64,000 nucleotides of DNA from Candidatus Babeliales bacterium (GTDB taxonomy: Bacteria; Babelota; Babeliae; Babelales; JABCYS01). A program made the translations under genes and the position numbers. The stretch is from NCBI GenBank assembly GCA_016929235.1, contig JAFGJD010000004.1, forward strand, positions 1-64,000, read 5' to 3'. Each line of letters begins with the position of its first letter. Within the stretch, counting starts at the first letter, position 1. Below, one piece after another: positions 1-8,082 of this stretch. The notes below the pieces were generated by a model. It was not told the DNA's origin. It saw only the letters and a program-made list of their open reading frames with translations, and searched no databases.

Positions 1-1
1 A

Positions 2-1474
2 TCAATGAACGGTAATTTTTGTGAAGGAACGGTGGTCTATCATCAACTCCCACGAAATGTCTTATACGCGCTCAATGAAATGGGATTTGACCCAGAGGCA
101 TACCGTGTATGTGCTGGCAACGAACTACAACAACTCAATCATAAAGAGCTCATGGCGCTTGTACACGCCGTTGCAGATATGCGCTACCAACATAATGGCA
201 ATGCCATGATCCAAGATACAACGGCCCATATTCTCACCACCGCAGATCGAGCTCGACTCCATAATGAACACGGTGATCTCAACAAAACCAATATTCTCCT
301 AGAAATATGTTCGTATGCACACAAAGCCCTCGATTGGCATATTATCGCCATGAAAGAAGTGGGTCGTTATTCAGTAAGACAACTTGCAGAGATTGCTCAA
401 CAACACGGCATCATTGCTGATACTGCATTTGTTGAACAATGGGAGCACGCCGTTGTAGAAGGCATAGACTTTCTAGGACAGGGAGCACACGGGCCTTTCG
501 ACTCTGTAGAGCGACTTGCCTATGCCATAACACACCCACAAGAAGTCTTGGAAGCTACTGGTAATATCATCGCGCGCACCATGAGGGTATTAGCTATACA
601 GGCCGAAATAGAAGACACCTGGGTCCCTGGAGTCGTACCAGACATCGAATCAATTGCAGCGTTTTACAGACAAGAGTTGGAGCCGCTCCATAAGACACTC
701 GTACACCTCTCACAGATGAACTCAAAACAATGGTTCCGGTTCCTTACGTCACTTGGATGTGACATGAAACTCTATAGTTCAGGGGGGCGCTTTATGAAAA
801 CAACAGGAACTCATATACGACAATCTTTTTTCAGACACATTGCTCCCATCATAGAAGCTGTAGAAGAAGAGCAGCTCGCACAAAAAATATTCGAAGTTGC
901 GTCAGAAATGGAAACCGTTGCACCTGGATATTGGGGTTACGATCCAAAATATCAAAAGCCAACACCGTTCACATATAAATCTCTAAAGTTATTTCGCAAA
1001 ATTCAAAACACACTAGAACTAATGGCCATGCCCAATGCGGAAGTAGCCGCCTTGAATAATTTATCAGGCAAAATGGGACGACCTCTTGGAGAAAGAGTTA
1101 TACGCCACATCCTTGAACCCGAAATTCGCATGGGAGGCAGATATAATGGTGGCCACTTTTATCAATCTGCTCTAGTGTTAGAGGACTTAGGCATCATAAA
1201 ACTGACAAATAAAATGGTTGATAAACAGGGCGTCATCATGGCAGATATTTTGGAAGTCAGGACTGGAACTTTATCTCATGGGAAGACATTCTTCCCTGAA
1301 TCTTGGACTCGTGAGCAATGTCTAGAGGCAATACAGAACGTGCAAAGCAAACTTGCATCTCGTGTCAAAAAATTTCCTACAGACAGAGTCATGACCTCCT
1401 ATGGAATCGAAATCGAAGTCGCACATAATGGTGAAACACTTTTCACAGCATATCCGCGTTTCAATAAAGGATAA
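2..1474 (+). CDS. Polymorphic toxin, 5'-partial, with C-terminal bacterial EndoU-type RNase domain
   Basis: The C-terminal ~130 aa carry the EndoU signature RHILE...GGHF...KTFFPESW...TAYP (His/His/Lys). The frame is open to the window edge, so the true start is probably upstream. The N-terminal part is unrecognised. Confidence 0.85.
   Translation, partial: SMNGNFCEGTVVYHQLPRNVLYALNEMGFDPEAYRVCAGNELQQLNHKELMALVHAVADMRYQHNGNAMIQDTTAHILTTADRARLHNEHGDLNKTNILLEICSYAHKALDWHIIAMKEVGRYSVRQLAEIAQQHGIIADTAFVEQWEHAVVEGIDFLGQGAHGPFDSVERLAYAITHPQEVLEATGNIIARTMRVLAIQAEIEDTWVPGVVPDIESIAAFYRQELEPLHKTLVHLSQMNSKQWFRFLTSLGCDMKLYSSGGRFMKTTGTHIRQSFFRHIAPIIEAVEEEQLAQKIFEVASEMETVAPGYWGYDPKYQKPTPFTYKSLKLFRKIQNTLELMAMPNAEVAALNNLSGKMGRPLGERVIRHILEPEIRMGGRYNGGHFYQSALVLEDLGIIKLTNKMVDKQGVIMADILEVRTGTLSHGKTFFPESWTREQCLEAIQNVQSKLASRVKKFPTDRVMTSYGIEIEVAHNGETLFTAYPRFNKG
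839..957 (+). repeat. Copy 1 of ~120-bp direct repeat (toxin pre-tip junction IAPIIEA...YWGYDPKYQK)
   Basis: Highly similar to 1884-2008. The last 26 nt (tggggttacgatccaaaatatcaaaa, 932-957) are identical to 1983-2008. Confidence 0.95.
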
Positions 1475-1475
1475 C

Positions 1476-1847
1476 ATGATTTATCAAGCAATCATTTGCA
1501 CGAAATCATTAACCATAGATTCTGCTTTCAACCATCTTGCAACTCTCGCTTATTTTTTGACATCGGTTACTCAAACAGACAATATCGACAGCTACTACAA
1601 GATTGCTCTCTCAGATGAAAACACAAGTCAAGGACAAGGGCCAGGAGACCTAAGCTTTGAAAAAAACAAGACAACCATACGAATTAAGACCGATTTAGAT
1701 TGCAAATGGGACAAAGAGGTATTCACAAGCAGTGCGGAAGCTTTTATTGCTATTCTCGAGAAATGGGAGCAGCTACTACAGGAAAATCACAGAGAAATTG
1801 TGATTACTCAAGACGGAGATAAAATAACCCTCGAAGGAAGAGACTAA
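1476..1847 (+). CDS. Putative cognate immunity protein of the EndoU toxin (~123 aa)
   Basis: ATG at 1476 lies 1 nt after the toxin stop. Small, acidic, no signal peptide, in the classic toxin-immunity arrangement. A homologous C-terminus recurs at ~2010-2150. Confidence 0.7.
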   Translation: MIYQAIICTKSLTIDSAFNHLATLAYFLTSVTQTDNIDSYYKIALSDENTSQGQGPGDLSFEKNKTTIRIKTDLDCKWDKEVFTSSAEAFIAILEKWEQLLQENHREIVITQDGDKITLEGRD

Positions 1848-1883
1848 TTTACAAATATCAGAAAAAATGAGGCATACCCCAAA

Positions 1884-2162
1884 ATTGCTCCCCTCATAGA
1901 AGCTGCAGAAAGAGCTCCCGTACAAGTCACCGAAAAAATATTCGAAGCTGCATCAGACATGGAAGCTGTTGCACCTAGATACTGGGGTTACGATCCAAAA
2001 TATCAAAAACTCGACACTCCTGACAAGGCAATTATTCTCCCCACCGTTCAGTTTATTCGTATTTTGGAAACATGGGATCGCCTGCTCTCAGAGCAACCAC
2101 AAGAGATCATCATCAAGGATGGTGATGAAATCAGACTCGAAGGTCGCAACCCTTCCCCTTGA
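1884..2162 (+). pseudogene. Collapsed orphan toxin/immunity cassette: repeat of the toxin junction fused in frame to the C-terminal part of an immunity paralog
   Basis: 1884-2008 repeats 839-957 with an indel. After YWGYDPKYQK the frame reads QFIRILETWDRLLSEQPQEIIIKDGDEIRLEGR, which matches immunity AFIAILEKWEQLLQENHREIVITQDGDKITLEGR. Confidence 0.8.
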
Positions 2163-2217: not shown

Positions 2218-2697
2218 ATGAAATCGCTTCCGCTACTTTTTGTCGTTACTGCAGTCTATGTACATACAGCAACCGCATCTGACTTTGATCGCGAAGATGA
2301 GCTAGTGTCTTATAGCCATCTTAAGCATATTGATCCCAATGAAGTCATGCGATCTGAAACCCTAGTCGACAATCTCGTTACATCCTTTTATAAACAACCC
2401 CCAGTTGTTGCACGACCTATCAACTTTGTTGAGCAAACATGGCAGGCATTCTGGCGATACCTCATTGGAGCAGGTTGCTATGGCCTCGCGAAAAAGCTGT
2501 ATCTTAAAATTCAGGGGGTTGAAAAAAATAACTCATACCAACTGACAGGACTGCAACTCCTTCTATTGCTAGTACCATGGAGAAAGTTTATTGAGTGGCA
2601 AGATAACTACTGCCTACAAATGCGTATTAAGCCAAATAATGCGGCTCATATTGCTGGATTTATCTGTGCATCATTGGCTACGGCAAAGTTAAGCTAA
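2218..2697 (+). CDS. Hypothetical protein with signal peptide and hydrophobic segments
   Basis: RBS gaggag, Sec-like N-terminus MKSLPLLFVVTAVYVHTATA. No recognised domain. Confidence 0.65.
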   Translation: MKSLPLLFVVTAVYVHTATASDFDREDELVSYSHLKHIDPNEVMRSETLVDNLVTSFYKQPPVVARPINFVEQTWQAFWRYLIGAGCYGLAKKLYLKIQGVEKNNSYQLTGLQLLLLLVPWRKFIEWQDNYCLQMRIKPNNAAHIAGFICASLATAKLS

Positions 2698-3707
2698 AGC
2701 GTCCAATATGGATGTTCACCAGATAGTATGCGAACAACGTCGCTCGCCTGCCGGTGCTTCCTGATAAGTTGTCCTGACACAAATGGATCTACCCAACTCC
2801 TGCAAATCCACGCCTTAAGCACATGTCGGACAAATCCTAAAATCAAATCGGCTGCTTCATACATTTTAAATTGCGCAAATCCAAGTGGCGTTATTTCTGC
2901 GCCGCCGTATCGAACAACAATAGTATGTTTCTTGTGAATACCTCTTTGTGCAAGGGTACAGAGCGATATAAACACTGAACCGTTGTAACTGCGTATTGCA
3001 TCCATCACAAACATAGCCTCAAAAACCTCTCCATAACTGAGACCATGTAAAGGCGATAGCTTGTATCCTCGTTCAAGAAGATAATCCAGAATAACTCGAT
3101 ACCGATTTGCCGAACGTTGCATGTCGCTCTCATCGAATGCTTCTTGCACTATATCGCGAGCGTCATACTCTTGGTTTTTTGCGGCTCCATCAAAAACCAT
3201 AATGATCGCATAGACAAGATCGATGATACCCAGACGATGCCCATCAATCTCAAACGTAACATCAAACTCTCCTTCAAGAACTCGTGGAAATGAGAGATTG
3301 CAAATTTCATCAATCGTATACAGCGCGATAAGCGCATCTCCAGGCGATGCCCACTCTACGCCAGCATTTCTTGGAACAAAACTTCTCAATGGCCACCTAT
3401 CAGGCTCTCTATAAGAAGCATTATCATGATGAAGCTCGTCACACCCATAGGATCGCCACCGGTCATGCATGGTATCTCGTTTGCACAGGCGACGAACCGT
3501 CTCTTCATCTATGACTACTTCATACCGATCCGGAATTCTCTTCCATTCTTCCTGAAACCTCTGCCACCATTCTTCCTTGTTAAATTCAAATGGTTTATCC
3601 TGTTCATTCGCCTCATCTTCTTTCCTCTGTTCTTGCTCAGATTGCTCATCACAAAAAATTAATCCAACGACTGAAAAGAAAACATAGAAAATAAAGTGAA
3701 ATCTCAT
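2694..3707 (-). CDS. Hypothetical secreted protein
   Basis: 337-aa ORF with a hydrophobic N-terminus followed by an acidic linker. No recognised domain. Confidence 0.7.
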   Translation of the reverse strand: MRFHFIFYVFFSVVGLIFCDEQSEQEQRKEDEANEQDKPFEFNKEEWWQRFQEEWKRIPDRYEVVIDEETVRRLCKRDTMHDRWRSYGCDELHHDNASYREPDRWPLRSFVPRNAGVEWASPGDALIALYTIDEICNLSFPRVLEGEFDVTFEIDGHRLGIIDLVYAIIMVFDGAAKNQEYDARDIVQEAFDESDMQRSANRYRVILDYLLERGYKLSPLHGLSYGEVFEAMFVMDAIRSYNGSVFISLCTLAQRGIHKKHTIVVRYGGAEITPLGFAQFKMYEAADLILGFVRHVLKAWICRSWVDPFVSGQLIRKHRQASDVVRILSGEHPYWTL

Positions 3708-3815: not shown

Positions 3816-6800
3816 CTACAACACCCTTTCTTCAGAACGCATTTCCCGCTCACGATCATGACGTGCGCGCATTTCATCTTCACGACGCCGAGCTTCTTCA
3901 TCAACTCGTTCATGTTCTTGATCTGCCCTTTCTCTGCTGATTTTTCCCTCTGTAACCGCTTGCTCAATCTCCTGAAACCTTTGTACTTTTTGCTGAACCA
4001 GCTCCGCCTCTTCTTGCGCAAGCCGTTGATCAAAAACTTCAGACGTCTCTTCTACGATACGATTACGATACACGTCATCTTCAAAGGAAATCATGTCTGC
4101 AACTTGAGCAGCATCGATACCTGCTGCACGCAAATCTTCCTGCGTTGCCACGGCTGCATCTACTGCAAGCCCCGGTACGCCTGCCTCAACAGCGTCTACG
4201 CCATCTTCCATCGTTTCAGTAGCACCTAAAAGCGGTTCTCGCTCCGGAGCATCTAAAGCAATATCTCCAGAAGGATAACGTTGACGCACACTCGTACGCG
4301 TTTGGTCTTCAGCAATCCGTACTTGTGTCGTACGACTTGGAAATGCATCTGAAATCGCATTGGCAAAGTTCTTGAGCGCACGCAAGAATCTATCCACTAA
4401 TCCCAGCTCTCGCTGTGTCCTTGCCCCTATGATCTCGAGAACTCGTTGTCCCTCTTGTAGCCGTACAACGCCGTTCATCGTATCAAAGACACTTTGAGTA
4501 AGATTATTTCCATCTAATACAATGTTACTTAATTGCGGACATCTTGTTAGCAATCTGCCAAACGCCTCTTCACTTACATAGCGTAATTGATTTTCTGAAA
4601 GATCAAGCCGAACAAGTGATGGCGGTAATGAATCAACAAAATTTGTATCGAAAGTCTCTATACCATTATTGTTAAGATTCAACGTTCGCACTGAGGTCAT
4701 TTGATCCACAGGAATCTCTCTGAGATTTCGCAACATGTTGTCTGAGCAATTTACTACGGTGATACGTTGAAGCGGAATTTTGCCATCAGTTGCCAATCTC
4801 ATAAAACCCTCTGTACTCGAAAGTAATTGTCCTGATAGATCCAATGTTTTTGTGCCATCGGCAGCCTCAGCGTATAGCCGTCCTATAGTATCTGGCGCAT
4901 CGGCTTCCGCTGCAGGTAAGCGACGGTCTACAAGATCATTGACGCTTAACCCGTAATCAATGGCATAATTAAACAAACTTTCCTGATGCGTCTTTCCTCG
5001 GCTTCGTTGCCATTTATAATATTCGCGCGCAATCTCACGCTGCACAGCGAGAGAAAGACCATTGAATTCATGGCTTATTTGAAGACTGTCATCACTGTTA
5101 CTCCATAACTCAAGTGAGTTGCCAAGTTTTGAAACAAAGACGCGACCGCCAAAAACGTTAATGAACCACTCTGGTTCCATATTACTAATGCCCAGGATCC
5201 AAGCACGTGCAACCTCTGGGGTATAATCTTGTGGGAAGAATCTTCGTTGCACCCACGAAAACACGTTTGCACCTATCCATGCAACACCAGCTTTTTTTGC
5301 AGCTTCAACCGGCTGCATCTGAAAGAGATCTCGTAGTGCCGCAACACCACCCACAGCCTCTATGGCAATAGGCATGTACTCAATGACAGTGACACGAGCT
5401 TTTTGTACAAGATCTCTAATCTTCTGTCTAAACCAATCCTGCCATGTCTGGTCGTCTGGCGCAGGAAAATCGCCGAGTTCTTGGACAATAAAACGCTTAT
5501 ACTGCGCATCCTCATTGGCATGCATTGCGAGCCCGAGAATCATCATGCCCAAGTCCTCCGCCACATCAACCTGAACTGTTTTTCCCGGTTGTTCTTCATG
5601 AGCATTCAAAATACGCTGTGATCCTTGTGCCCTATACTCAGATAGTTTCACTCCAGCACCATCAAACTGAACCACTATGTCACGTGGCTGAAAATCCAAA
5701 AACGTACGATAGCGTTCTCGCATGGATTGCTTAAGGGTTTCACGCGCCGACTCGGCAACATCTCCCCCCAATAACTTATCCAGGACCTCATTCCTGTCGT
5801 CTGGTGACATATGAGTATCTTCAGCTCGTGCAAGCATAACGTTGTGATACTGCCTGAAGCACTCAAGAAACGTCTCATCTTGAAACAAGTCTTTCTGAGT
5901 CGCTTCGTTCTCAACTCCTGTTACTTGATCCAGCGAATCGTTTAGAAATGCAATAATATATTCTTGTGCCCATATTGCATCTTCAGCAAACATAACATCT
6001 CGAACATCTTGTCTGCTGAATAGATTGCGCCGAATCTGGAAATCTTCAATTCCCAGTCTGAAGGAGACTTCAAGTAGATCTGAAAAGTTAGGATCGTCAC
6101 CAGAAAGACTGCTCATACGAGTCGTAGCCATGCTGGCAAGCGCCGCCAAATTGTCAAACACAATATCCCCAACTCCTCCACGAGCATCTATCCGGTACAC
6201 GACCGTACCATCTTCCTGAACAACCATGGTGCGAGATACAAAATCTTCGGTCTTATCAAAAAAGGTATAAATGTCTCTGAGCGATGCAAGAGAAATGCTT
6301 TTGCGGCTACCACTTGCTGCTTGTTCAACGGTAACATTGATCAGTTCATCGAGGCGCTCCCCATCCTGCGGCCTTTCATAGTCATACCATTCAGCATCAG
6401 TCTGAACACGATTCCGCGAATACTCTTGGTAAACATCAAAAAACTGGGCTTGCAATTCCCACGGCATATTCAGCAGCTCATCTTGCACCTCTTGTGGTAA
6501 CGGCTGCAACAAGCCATACCTATCACCTGTCATATCAGCAATTTCTCCGTGGACCGCTTGATAAACATGTTCCATATATTGTTCGCTCAACCAAAATGCC
6601 TGCTGCAATCTAGGCTCGAGGTGCGAGAAAAGTTCGATTCTCACAGTTGGCCACACTTTCAGAAGCGAACTGATATCTTGAGTATCTAATGCTTCTTTTG
6701 TTGAGATGTAGGAAAAATATGCTTCACTTCCAGCCAGTAAATTTGTAGGCCACTTGAGGCCCCAACGAACTGCTTCTGCCAACAGATCTCCTGCAGATGC

Positions 6801-7112
6801 AACCTGAATGTCAATCTGAGAATTACGTATCAATTCCTCGATTTGTCGATACGCCTGCCCCTGCCCTCTGGCTCTATAAAATAACTCATAAACCGTTCCC
6901 GATAACTCAACCTTGCCCCCTTCAGCTGCGAATAATCTTGGATATGCATCGGACCAAATAGGATCGACTTGAAATGACTGTGTAGCATCATCTCTATTGA
7001 TAATGGTAACGGGCTGTGGCTCAGTTGACCTCCATGGCCACAGCCACTCTAAAGCTACAGCCTGACCACACCCCAAGGTAATCATCAATATCACAGGAAA
7101 CTTCTTACTCAT
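3816..7112 (-). CDS. Large secreted leucine-rich-repeat protein with C-terminal charged coiled coil (candidate host effector)
   Basis: Signal peptide MSKKFPVILMITLGCGQAVA and RBS aaggag. About 5 LRRs (TLDLSGQLL, VVNCSDNMLR, TLNLNNNGIE, RLDLSENQLR, NIVLDGNNLT). E/R-rich tail. Confidence 0.8.
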   Translation of the reverse strand: MSKKFPVILMITLGCGQAVALEWLWPWRSTEPQPVTIINRDDATQSFQVDPIWSDAYPRLFAAEGGKVELSGTVYELFYRARGQGQAYRQIEELIRNSQIDIQVASAGDLLAEAVRWGLKWPTNLLAGSEAYFSYISTKEALDTQDISSLLKVWPTVRIELFSHLEPRLQQAFWLSEQYMEHVYQAVHGEIADMTGDRYGLLQPLPQEVQDELLNMPWELQAQFFDVYQEYSRNRVQTDAEWYDYERPQDGERLDELINVTVEQAASGSRKSISLASLRDIYTFFDKTEDFVSRTMVVQEDGTVVYRIDARGGVGDIVFDNLAALASMATTRMSSLSGDDPNFSDLLEVSFRLGIEDFQIRRNLFSRQDVRDVMFAEDAIWAQEYIIAFLNDSLDQVTGVENEATQKDLFQDETFLECFRQYHNVMLARAEDTHMSPDDRNEVLDKLLGGDVAESARETLKQSMRERYRTFLDFQPRDIVVQFDGAGVKLSEYRAQGSQRILNAHEEQPGKTVQVDVAEDLGMMILGLAMHANEDAQYKRFIVQELGDFPAPDDQTWQDWFRQKIRDLVQKARVTVIEYMPIAIEAVGGVAALRDLFQMQPVEAAKKAGVAWIGANVFSWVQRRFFPQDYTPEVARAWILGISNMEPEWFINVFGGRVFVSKLGNSLELWSNSDDSLQISHEFNGLSLAVQREIAREYYKWQRSRGKTHQESLFNYAIDYGLSVNDLVDRRLPAAEADAPDTIGRLYAEAADGTKTLDLSGQLLSSTEGFMRLATDGKIPLQRITVVNCSDNMLRNLREIPVDQMTSVRTLNLNNNGIETFDTNFVDSLPPSLVRLDLSENQLRYVSEEAFGRLLTRCPQLSNIVLDGNNLTQSVFDTMNGVVRLQEGQRVLEIIGARTQRELGLVDRFLRALKNFANAISDAFPSRTTQVRIAEDQTRTSVRQRYPSGDIALDAPEREPLLGATETMEDGVDAVEAGVPGLAVDAAVATQEDLRAAGIDAAQVADMISFEDDVYRNRIVEETSEVFDQRLAQEEAELVQQKVQRFQEIEQAVTEGKISRERADQEHERVDEEARRREDEMRARHDREREMRSEERVL

Positions 7113-7257
7113 ACACACTTCTCCTTACCATCTTTACTAGGACTAAGGCAAACCTACTATATGCAGAGAGGACAAGACAAGAGTACCCATTTACCCTTTC
7201 ACCCAGGCCGAAGTATACTGAGTGACGCAGAGAAAGATAAACCGTCAGGAGACAATC

Positions 7258-8082
7258 ATGAAAATCACATCATTATGCGTGGCATCTTTAGTAGCCGCAG
7301 CAAGTTTACAGGTAAGCGCTCAACCAGTGGTGTGGGATCCTCCACATCCAAAGCCAGCCACAGAAGAGGAGGTTGTAGAGAACTACAAAGCGTTTCTCTT
7401 CCCAGCGGAAGAAGAGCTCGAAGAGCTGCGGGTTCTTTTCAGAGATGCAATAGGAAATCCTGATGAAATAACACGGCTTCACCACAGGATTAGATTACTG
7501 CAACATGCCATAAAATTAGCGGGTGGACTCAATAATGATCGTTACTACCCCTACCGCCCAGCAAACGCGTTATTAAACCAATTTCGCCAGACAGATTCCT
7601 ACAAAACATCGAGCCTGGCTTATCGCCTTAAGCTACAGGTATGGTCCCTCAGCGAAAGGGTTAATGTTTTTACTTGGGGTAAATATCAAGGGTCAGAAGG
7701 ATGGCTGGCTCGTCAAATCAACAAGTTACAGTTAAGAAATAGGTTTGATCGTGACTATCAATCATGTATGCACGTTACAGCTGATTCATTAAGCTTGCAG
7801 AGCGGCTATCTGCTAGCGTCTTTGCGCTATGGTATTAAACCGTCCGGAGAGCTCCGTGAAGACTGGCAACCTGAGTACCTACAGCCACTCTACACCGAAG
7901 AAAGGCCTCTCTCCTGGCCCTTTGAGGGAAAGATATCTCATCATTTGGTGTACTGGGAAGAAATACAACGGAGAATTGATCAAGAGAGAATTCGTCGCAT
8001 GCAAGAGCAGGGTGCCGACGAAGGTCGCAACCGCAGCGCAAGTGGCAGCGCCGCCAGTGACGATTCGGATATCTCTCGTTAG
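7258..8082 (+). CDS. Hypothetical secreted protein
   Basis: RBS aggag before ATG 7258. Signal peptide MKITSLCVASLVAAASLQVSA. Confidence 0.7.
   Translation: MKITSLCVASLVAAASLQVSAQPVVWDPPHPKPATEEEVVENYKAFLFPAEEELEELRVLFRDAIGNPDEITRLHHRIRLLQHAIKLAGGLNNDRYYPYRPANALLNQFRQTDSYKTSSLAYRLKLQVWSLSERVNVFTWGKYQGSEGWLARQINKLQLRNRFDRDYQSCMHVTADSLSLQSGYLLASLRYGIKPSGELREDWQPEYLQPLYTEERPLSWPFEGKISHHLVYWEEIQRRIDQERIRRMQEQGADEGRNRSASGSAASDDSDISR

What the first reader, a model, noticed from the sequence alone, without database searches (positions are those of the whole stretch)
2..2162. Polymorphic toxin locus with an unrecognised carrier: EndoU tip, immunity gene and orphan cassette
Seen: an ORF ending in an EndoU RNase domain, a tightly coupled small acidic gene, then a second copy of the DNA preceding the toxin tip joined to a second immunity-like C-terminus. 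Known: this toxin-immunity-orphan layout defines the CDI, Rhs, MafB and LXG systems. The ~310 aa visible before the tip show none of their hallmarks (no RHS/YD repeats, DPxG, VENN or filamentous haemagglutinin repeats). Inference: this is a distinct polymorphic toxin family with an unknown delivery route, in what appears to be an intracellular protist parasite. It could act against co-infecting symbionts or host RNA.
Basis: partly seen in the sequence, partly recalled or inferred. Interest (0 to 1): 0.85.

Follow-up and report, generated by a model that had tools for sequence, protein, structure and literature searches.

The report
Babelota secreted polymorphic toxin family
This is an RNA-cutting toxin gene with its antidote gene, belonging to an apparently undescribed family of secreted toxins with swappable tips that is widespread in Babelota, bacteria that live only inside protists, which suggests these parasites fight each other inside their hosts.

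Summary
The toxin-immunity pair is real. ORF 2-1474 (cut at its 5' end by the contig start) ends in an EndoU RNase with an intact His-His-Lys triad. The acidic gene 1476-1847 follows at 1 nt and is modelled on the active site (ipSAE 0.88, best control 0.00). The 'orphan' 1848-2162 has no tip: it is a remnant. YWGYDPKYQK is not a family junction (0 of 230 homologs).

The carrier belongs to a large family. A core domain (aa ~10-110, GNxxQxxxHxE...N...DxC) is found in 124 of 261 phylum genomes (order Babeliales) and in 932 clusters at 50% identity. Complete members have a signal-peptide-like start, a long helix, the core, Gly-rich helices and a variable tip: 29 tip clusters among 80 carriers, including EndoU, Ntox17/21/35, colicin D and colicin E3. 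Carriers 95-98% identical carry unrelated tips, and immunity type tracks tip type. No known delivery domain or fold matched the carrier.

Best reading: a Sec-exported (probably type II secretion), MafB-like but not MafB, polymorphic toxin used against rival Babelota in shared protist hosts. Delivery route and target are inferred, not shown. I found no description in four literature searches.

The parts
2..1474 (+). Polymorphic toxin gene, 490 aa visible; 5' part missing at the contig start
   Evidence: AlphaFold model
1..87 (+). End of a repeated upstream carrier segment shared with a second paralog; the cause of the contig break
   Evidence: Logan contig of depth 21.7 covers 1-87 and runs 506 nt upstream, against depth 11.1 for 58-2600; P0133 is identical for aa 1-36, then 33% identical
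29..331 (+). Family core domain, aa ~10-110 (beta-alpha-alpha-beta plus three long helices; G39, Q43, H47, E49, N88, G91, C103)
   Evidence: pLDDT about 90 or more over aa 11-110; 12 of 15 strongly conserved columns kept; single-sequence hits to relatives at aa 13-105
422..772 (+). Gly-rich helical region after the core (G154, G164, HP178-179); candidate membrane-crossing part (inferred)
   Evidence: conserved G154, G164, P179; family mean hydropathy peaks here at 0.6-0.9; low model confidence
809..958 (+). Pre-tip segment (aa 270-319), duplicated downstream; specific to this locus
1094..1456 (+). EndoU RNase tip, catalytic H369, H385, K428
   Evidence: Pfam PF14436; fold match 5HKQ CdiA-CT STEC_O31, Z 12.5, rmsd 2.8 over 123 residues; alignment
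1476..1847 (+). Cognate immunity gene, 123 aa, acidic; member of a family that follows EndoU tips
   Evidence: family follows 20 of 24 EndoU-type tips; found in 69 of 261 genomes; complex model ipSAE 0.88 vs best control 0.00
1851..2009 (+). Remnant: second copy of the pre-tip arm
   Evidence: 60% aa over 53 residues, 81% nt over 127 nt; 18 of 25 codons identical
2010..2162 (+). Remnant: C-terminal third of a second, non-cognate immunity gene fused in frame to the arm; tip and 5' part of the immunity gene deleted
   Evidence: 49% aa over 45 residues; 59% nt; immunity profile positions 81-123 only, E 1.3e-7

Best explanation
The locus is one member of a Babelota polymorphic toxin family used against other bacteria, most likely rival Babelota strains sharing a protist cell.

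Steps: (1) The full protein is exported by Sec through an N-terminal signal peptide (strongly inferred from complete homologs; this copy's N-terminus is not assembled). (2) It crosses the outer membrane by the conserved type II secretion system (about 50%) or leaves in outer-membrane vesicles (about 30%) (inferred). (3) An N-terminal alpha/beta domain, a ~60-residue helix and the conserved core form an elongated stalk that docks on the target; the Gly-rich, mildly hydrophobic helices after the core carry the tip across a membrane (architecture predicted, function inferred). (4) The EndoU tip cuts RNA, probably tRNA, in the target cytoplasm with H369/H385/K428 (family and fold shown, activity inferred). 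(5) The downstream acidic protein blocks the active site in the producer and its clones (gene coupling and co-variation shown, binding modelled). (6) Tips with their immunity genes are exchanged by recombination, leaving orphan tips, immunity arrays and remnants such as 1848-2162 (shown by near-identical carriers with unrelated tips).

Odds: polymorphic toxin-immunity system about 0.93; bacterial kin as the main target about 0.65.
For: Core in 124 of 261 phylum genomes and 932 clusters. 29 tip clusters among 80 carriers; 41 of 80 tips hit Pfam families at E<=0.01: EndoU 21, Ntox17 8, Ntox21 4, Ntox35 3, colicin E3-type 2, DUF4258 2, colicin D 1; six of these are under the curated cut-off. 42 of 145 library proteins carry such tips, including one barnase-like; RNase A-type tips occur in 7 of 14. 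Carriers 95.3% and 97.6% identical carry different tips, and starred tree branches force at least 8 changes for EndoU and 6 for Ntox17. 74 of 78 downstream genes start within 30 nt and 71 of 79 are 200 aa or less. 244 of 264 pairs sharing an immunity cluster share the tip cluster, against 94 of 2817 other pairs (kin not independent). Known CdiI families appear downstream. Arrays of up to 5-6 divergent immunity paralogs occur. Hydrophobic N-terminus in 66 of 77 vs 65 of 122 background. Secretin and GspF in 5 of 5 genomes, Hcp, WXG100 and RHS in 0 of 5. Complex model 0.88 vs best control 0.00; mark reached by 116 of 157 solved and 2 of 215 mismatched pairs; runs agree in at least 97% of contacts, partner pLDDT at least 92; interface includes H369 and K428.
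Against: No experiment on any member. This copy's own signal peptide is unseen. The signal-peptide call is a crude hydropathy test in a phylum where such starts are common (53% background). No conserved partner gene (anchor, transporter, protease) lies upstream, so the export and entry route has no genomic pointer. The post-core helices are only mildly hydrophobic and poorly modelled. The window's core is divergent: long branch, 28% best identity, Glu for the conserved Asp. 39 of 80 tips have no recognised toxin family. The three same-family genomes have no match. A like EndoU-immunity complex (5HKQ) is solved, so the complex score may reflect likeness. Co-infection of one protist by two Babelota strains is assumed; the one ecology paper searched for such terms has none.
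Confidence: 0.6

Rival explanations
1. Host-directed effector family: the carrier delivers RNases into the protist cytosol or mitochondrion, and the immunity protein only guards against toxin that fails to be exported.
For: Obligate intracellular lifestyle (ADP/ATP translocases). C. destructans replicates wrapped in the host mitochondrion, sheds vesicles, and its EndoU was read as degrading host polymers (PMC6561590 passages). Colicin D/E3-type tips act on bacterial-type translation, which mitochondria share (established knowledge). Amoebophilus APD proteins are a host-directed precedent (PMC3482391 section 37).
Against: Arrays of divergent, non-cognate immunity genes only pay off against incoming toxins. 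Recognised tips all come from the antibacterial pool shared with CdiA, MafB and Rhs; no ankyrin, F-box or ubiquitin-system tips were seen in 80 + 145 proteins. Host-directed toxins of intracellular bacteria mostly lack immunity genes (PMC3482391 passage).
Confidence: 0.2
2. The family is a very remote branch of a known carrier (MafB-N or PT-TG pre-toxin domain), so only its host range is new.
For: ESM Atlas feature hits to a PT-TG cluster (0.89, 88 shared features) and a MafB cluster (0.78), both below the tool's reliability bar. Same signal peptide + constant part + variable tip layout as MafB (PMC4287609 passages). PT-HINT occurs in 2 of 80 carriers, as intein-like domains do in MafB.
Against: No MafB or PT-TG hit in 80 N-terminal parts at E<=0.01, in 145 library proteins or in 5 genomes at E<=0.1 (the MafB control was silent). 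No mafA-like conserved upstream gene.
Confidence: 0.1
3. Intracellular toxin-antitoxin, addiction or abortive-infection modules that never leave the cell.
For: Tight two-gene coupling, RNase toxins, patchy distribution (124 of 261) and insertion at unrelated chromosomal sites.
Against: Signal-peptide-like starts in 66 of 77; 450-1450 aa carriers; tip swapping with orphan cassettes; no match in phages, plasmids or viral contigs with one core query.
Confidence: 0.06

Closest known systems
MafB/MafI of Neisseria (Sec-dependent polymorphic toxin; PMC4287609)
   Same: Signal peptide, constant lineage-specific part, variable RNase tip including EndoU, coupled immunity gene, downstream cassettes, occasional intein-like (HINT) domain
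   Different: No DUF1020/PF06255 match; no mafA-like partner; predicted stalk with a 60-residue helix and an internal core; spread across a whole phylum of obligate intracellular parasites rather than one genus
Signal peptide + lineage-specific N-domain toxins (Microscilla-N; Amoebophilus APD1/APD2; PMC3482391 section 37)
   Same: Same design class; APD is also from a protist endosymbiont
   Different: APD proteins are lipoproteins with host-directed tips deployed in parallel; here the tips are antibacterial nucleases with cognate immunity, and the conserved domain lies about 230 aa into the protein
CdiA-CT/CdiI of E. coli STEC_O31 (PDB 5HKQ)
   Same: Best fold match of the tip (Z 12.5, rmsd 2.8, 123 residues); His-His-Lys triad; small immunity protein on the active site
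   Different: 12% identity; no haemagglutinin repeats or VENN domain; the immunity family has no sequence match in PDB or Pfam
Rickettsia CRCT/CRCA and Odyssella toxin-immunity systems
   Same: Toxin-antidote modules in intracellular bacteria, proposed for competition inside hosts (PMC9111745 abstract; PMC3482391 passage)
   Different: Those are CDI/Rhs-like tips in few lineages; this is a dedicated carrier family in about half of a phylum's genomes

Membership tests
Polymorphic toxin system (general) | Constant N-terminal part with interchangeable C-terminal toxin domains | tested here: met
   29 tip clusters on 80 carriers; 95-98% identical carriers with unrelated tips
Polymorphic toxin system (general) | Coupled downstream immunity gene that co-varies with the tip | tested here: met
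   74 of 78 within 30 nt; 244 of 264 same-immunity pairs share the tip; complex model
Polymorphic toxin system (general) | Orphan tip cassettes or immunity arrays | tested here: met
   12 tip-bearing non-carrier ORFs in loci that hold a carrier (18 in 16 of 77 loci overall); arrays. At this locus only a tip-less remnant.
Polymorphic toxin system (general) | Toxicity and neutralisation shown | not testable with these tools
   needs expression test
Bacterial EndoU nuclease | PF14436 above cut-off, EndoU fold, His-His-Lys triad | tested here: met
Sec/T2SS-exported toxins with lineage-specific domain | N-terminal signal peptide | tested here: inconclusive
   Missing from this truncated copy; hydrophobic start in 66 of 77 complete homologs vs 65 of 122 background, by a crude test
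Sec/T2SS-exported toxins with lineage-specific domain | Conserved domain restricted to one lineage | tested here: inconclusive
   5 of 6 proteins with an organism label are Babeliales/Dependentiae/TM6, one is 'bacterium'; no sensitive search outside the phylum was possible (the motif is in only 2 of 80 carriers)
MafB | DUF1020/PF06255 domain after the signal peptide | tested here: not met
   0 of 80 N-terminal parts, 0 of 145 proteins; genome search silent, control also silent
MafB | Conserved upstream mafA lipoprotein gene | tested here: not met
   Upstream neighbours of 80 carriers form no shared family; largest cluster 8
CDI (CdiA/CdiB) | Haemagglutinin repeats, VENN or equivalent pre-toxin domain | tested here: not met
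CDI (CdiA/CdiB) | CdiB/TpsB transporter | tested here: inconclusive
   ShlB 0 of 5 genomes, control silent
Rhs / T6SS effector | RHS repeats; Hcp in the genome | tested here: not met
   RHS 0 of 5, Hcp 0 of 5, controls rang; none in carriers
LXG / T7SS | LXG domain; WXG100 proteins | tested here: not met
   WXG100 0 of 5, control rang
PT-TG pre-toxin domain | PF14449 match before the tip | tested here: not met
   0 of 80, 0 of 5 genomes with control ringing; weak Atlas lead only
Any solved carrier fold | Structural match of the core or stalk | tested here: inconclusive
   Only generic helical bundles: best Z 9.5 (rmsd 5.8, 184 aligned) and 7.1 (rmsd 3.6, 129 aligned); Foldseek none; domains not folded alone

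The most novel reading that the evidence does not exclude
Babelota, a phylum of obligate intracellular parasites, has its own phylum-wide weapon: a type II-secreted stalk whose conserved core (R, Q, H, E, N, D, C) is a new receptor-binding or self-cleaving module. It delivers tRNA/rRNA nucleases into co-infecting bacteria inside the protist, enforcing superinfection exclusion, and possibly also into the host's bacterial-type mitochondrial translation system. This would be a new entry route for polymorphic toxins and direct evidence of warfare for host cells among protist parasites.
Probability: 0.35. Interest if true: 0.88.

Novelty: new variant of a known kind. Interest (0 to 1): 0.72.

Why it matters
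The 2012 survey of polymorphic toxins concluded that intracellular bacteria mostly lack immunity proteins and so rarely fight their own kind, Odyssella excepted (PMC3482391 passage). Here about half of the genomes of an obligate intracellular phylum, many of them near 1 Mb, keep a dedicated toxin carrier, often in several copies, with matching immunity genes. That implies frequent co-infection and competition inside protists and makes it testable in cultured isolates. It also offers another reading of the EndoU genes that were taken as host-degrading enzymes in C. destructans. The carrier core is a large family (932 clusters) without a Pfam model or clear fold match, and it works as bait: 39 of 80 tips and most immunity clusters have no known family.

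Tried and rejected
Recovering the missing N-terminus: no other contig end overlaps C2's start. The signal-peptide ORF at the start of C6 scored E 0.024 with a loose N-part profile but not with the tighter N-motif profile, and its pentapeptide repeats occur in no family member, so the link was rejected. A search among 859-2450 aa proteins and the metagenome scan found nothing.

YWGYDPKYQK as the family junction: rejected. Functional orphan at 1848-2162: rejected; no tip, and no Shine-Dalgarno-like site before ATG 1959.

NCBIfam: no hit on the locus. PDB sequence searches with core, immunity and tip profiles: nothing significant. Fold searches of the carrier: only generic helical matches; this does not show the fold is new. 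Atlas structure rows all had TM 0.5 or less.

Range outside the phylum: the motif scan of 185,579 genomes gave 2 loci, one titled Dependentiae and one titled uncultured Pseudomonadota. The exact motif is in only 2 of my 80 same-order carriers, so the scan is insensitive and the second title is unresolved. Viral contigs, phages and plasmids: no match with one core query. Run X2 had no cover (not evidence). Earlier-findings look-ups for this family returned nothing.

Full report
What is there. The window is the start of contig C2 of an 809 kb, 99% complete genome. The frame 2-1474 is open from the first base, so the gene is cut at its 5' end. Its last 120 residues match Pfam EndoU_bacteria above cut-off. 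The AlphaFold model of this part is best matched by the CdiA-CT of E. coli STEC_O31 (5HKQ; Z 12.5, rmsd 2.8, 123 residues), and H369, H385 and K428 align with the EndoU triad (triad as described in PMC9086364, passages read). A 123-aa acidic gene starts 1 nt after the stop. A complex model places it on the active site, touching H369 and K428: score 0.88, best of 3 controls 0.00, mark reached by 116 of 157 solved and 2 of 215 mismatched pairs, runs agreeing in at least 97% of contacts, partner pLDDT at least 92. A like complex is solved, so this may reflect likeness.

The 'orphan'. Bases 1884-2008 repeat 839-957 at 81% (E 9e-31). The copy runs in frame straight into the last third of an immunity-like gene, with no tip between. 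The arm is close to the original (18 of 25 codons identical), while the immunity part is far from the cognate gene (59% nt). I read it as a second cassette, from another EndoU pair, whose tip and immunity start were deleted. The YWGYDPKYQK stretch occurs in none of 230 other carriers, so it is not the family junction.

Why the contig breaks. In the one run that holds the locus (possibly its source), a contig of depth 21.7 covers positions 1-87 and extends 506 nt upstream, while 58-2600 has depth 11.1. Protein P0133, from a 1,296-nt contig, is identical for aa 1-36, then 33% identical, and enters a different EndoU tip. It is not in the assembled genome. So the organism, or a co-occurring strain, has two toxins with one shared N-half and different C-halves. 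I could not recover the N-half.

The family. Residues 13-105 matched long proteins in relatives. A 10-sequence profile that included the window protein hit 124 of 261 phylum genomes, all of one order, in 17 of 21 families, but 0 of 3 genomes of the window's own family, and 932 clusters at 50% identity. Carriers of a same-order genome are labelled Ca. Babeliales; 5 of 6 proteins with an organism label are Babeliales, Dependentiae or TM6, and one is 'bacterium'. The genome has ADP/ATP translocases, in line with an intracellular parasite.

Sample analysed. I chose 76 loci from the top matches (not a random sample), added the window, and analysed 80 carriers after dropping one 228-aa fragment. Complete carriers are 446-1455 aa (median 677), and 66 of 77 have a hydrophobic N-terminus, against 65 of 122 other long ORFs (crude test). 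Their tips fall into 29 clusters. Pfam names 41 of 80 at E<=0.01: EndoU 21, Ntox17 8, Ntox21 4, Ntox35 3, colicin E3-type 2, DUF4258 2, colicin D 1, six of them under the cut-off. One unnamed cluster has a restriction-nuclease-like E-D-ExK pattern by eye (motif recalled). Among 145 of the 150 listed library proteins, 42 have such tips, and RNase A-type tips occur in 7 of 14 others.

Evidence of swapping and immunity. Carriers 95.3% and 97.6% identical carry unrelated tips, and tip labels are scattered on a core tree, though more clustered than shuffles (33 changes against a mean of 41; bootstrap not settled). The next same-strand gene starts within 30 nt in 74 of 78 cases and is 200 aa or less in 71 of 79. 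Immunity clusters track tip clusters (244 of 264 pairs against 94 of 2817; dominated by EndoU and not independent). Some are known CdiI families. The window's immunity family occurs in 69 of 261 genomes, often as arrays of up to 5-6 divergent copies, and tip-bearing orphans lie at other loci.

What the carrier is not. No RHS, haemagglutinin, VENN, LXG, MafB, PT-TG or MuF domain was found in 80 N-terminal parts or 145 whole proteins; PT-HINT occurs in 2 of 80. In 5 genomes tested, secretin and GspF were present in all, and Hcp, WXG100, RHS and PT-TG in none; ShlB and MafB were also absent, but their controls were silent. No conserved partner gene lies upstream. A complete carrier folds (pTM 0.75) into an N-terminal alpha/beta domain, a 60-residue helix, the core and less certain Gly-rich helices. 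Fold searches gave only generic helical bundles. Weak language-model leads to PT-TG and MafB were not confirmed. Restriction to Babelota is likely but was not tested sensitively.

How it likely works. Sec export, then type II secretion or vesicles; the stalk and core dock on a target; the Gly-rich helices pass the tip across a membrane; the RNase stops translation; the immunity protein protects clones; recombination renews the tips. Polymorphism, coupling and co-variation are shown. Export, entry and activity are inferred. Non-cognate immunity arrays and an all-antibacterial tip repertoire favour rival bacteria as the target (0.6 for the whole account) over host RNA (0.2), a remote MafB/PT-TG branch (0.1) or an internal toxin-antitoxin module (0.06).

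Known and new. The design class is known: PMC3482391 (section 37 read; passages) describes signal peptide plus lineage-specific domain toxins (MafB-N, Microscilla-N, APD) and notes that intracellular bacteria mostly lack immunity genes. It works like MafB (PMC4287609, passages) but fails MafB membership. Rickettsia CRCT/CRCA is an intracellular precedent (PMC9111745, abstract). Papers on the phylum mention type II secretion (PMC4776705, passages) and EndoU as a host-degrading enzyme (PMC6561590, passages; its supplements could not be read and may list these genes). PMC12172432 has no occurrence of 'toxin'. Four full-text searches listed no paper joining the phylum with polymorphic toxins; most subscription papers are not covered. 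Two earlier scan notes on this genome agree on the phylum and on type II secretion.

Verdict. Real locus, partly misdescribed, and a window on an apparently undescribed, phylum-wide toxin family. New variant of a known kind; interest 0.72.

Noticed in passing
window 3816-7118 (-): 1100-aa protein with a signal-peptide-like start and leucine-rich repeats at aa ~785-873; likely a host-directed effector.
   Followed up: no
window 2218-2697 (+), 2694-3707 (-), 7222-8082 (+): Three ORFs with signal-peptide-like starts and no meaningful Pfam or NCBIfam match.
   Followed up: no
G000:C6:1-1170 (-): Signal-peptide ORF running off the contig in pentapeptide repeats; tested as the missing N-half and not supported.
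   Followed up: yes
L099:1153-3768, L100:1225-3792: Carriers with a PT-HINT domain near the N-terminus, upstream of the core rather than just before the tip.
   Followed up: no
L035, L075, L117, L119: Four long carriers hold two copies of the core domain.
   Followed up: no
L025:7145-10126: 993-aa signal-peptide protein with an EndoU tip and the same immunity family but no detected core; possibly a second Babelota carrier type.
   Followed up: partly
L069 (G233), L021 (G019): Tandem arrays of three or four full-length toxin-immunity pairs with near-identical carriers and different tips.
   Followed up: partly
G000:C2:130121-155909: Three secretin genes, against two in each of four relatives tested.
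   Followed up: no
tips of L069:8242, L070:4750, L074:1667, L079, L096, L113, L128 and others: Many tip clusters have no Pfam family; candidate new nuclease domains.
   Followed up: no
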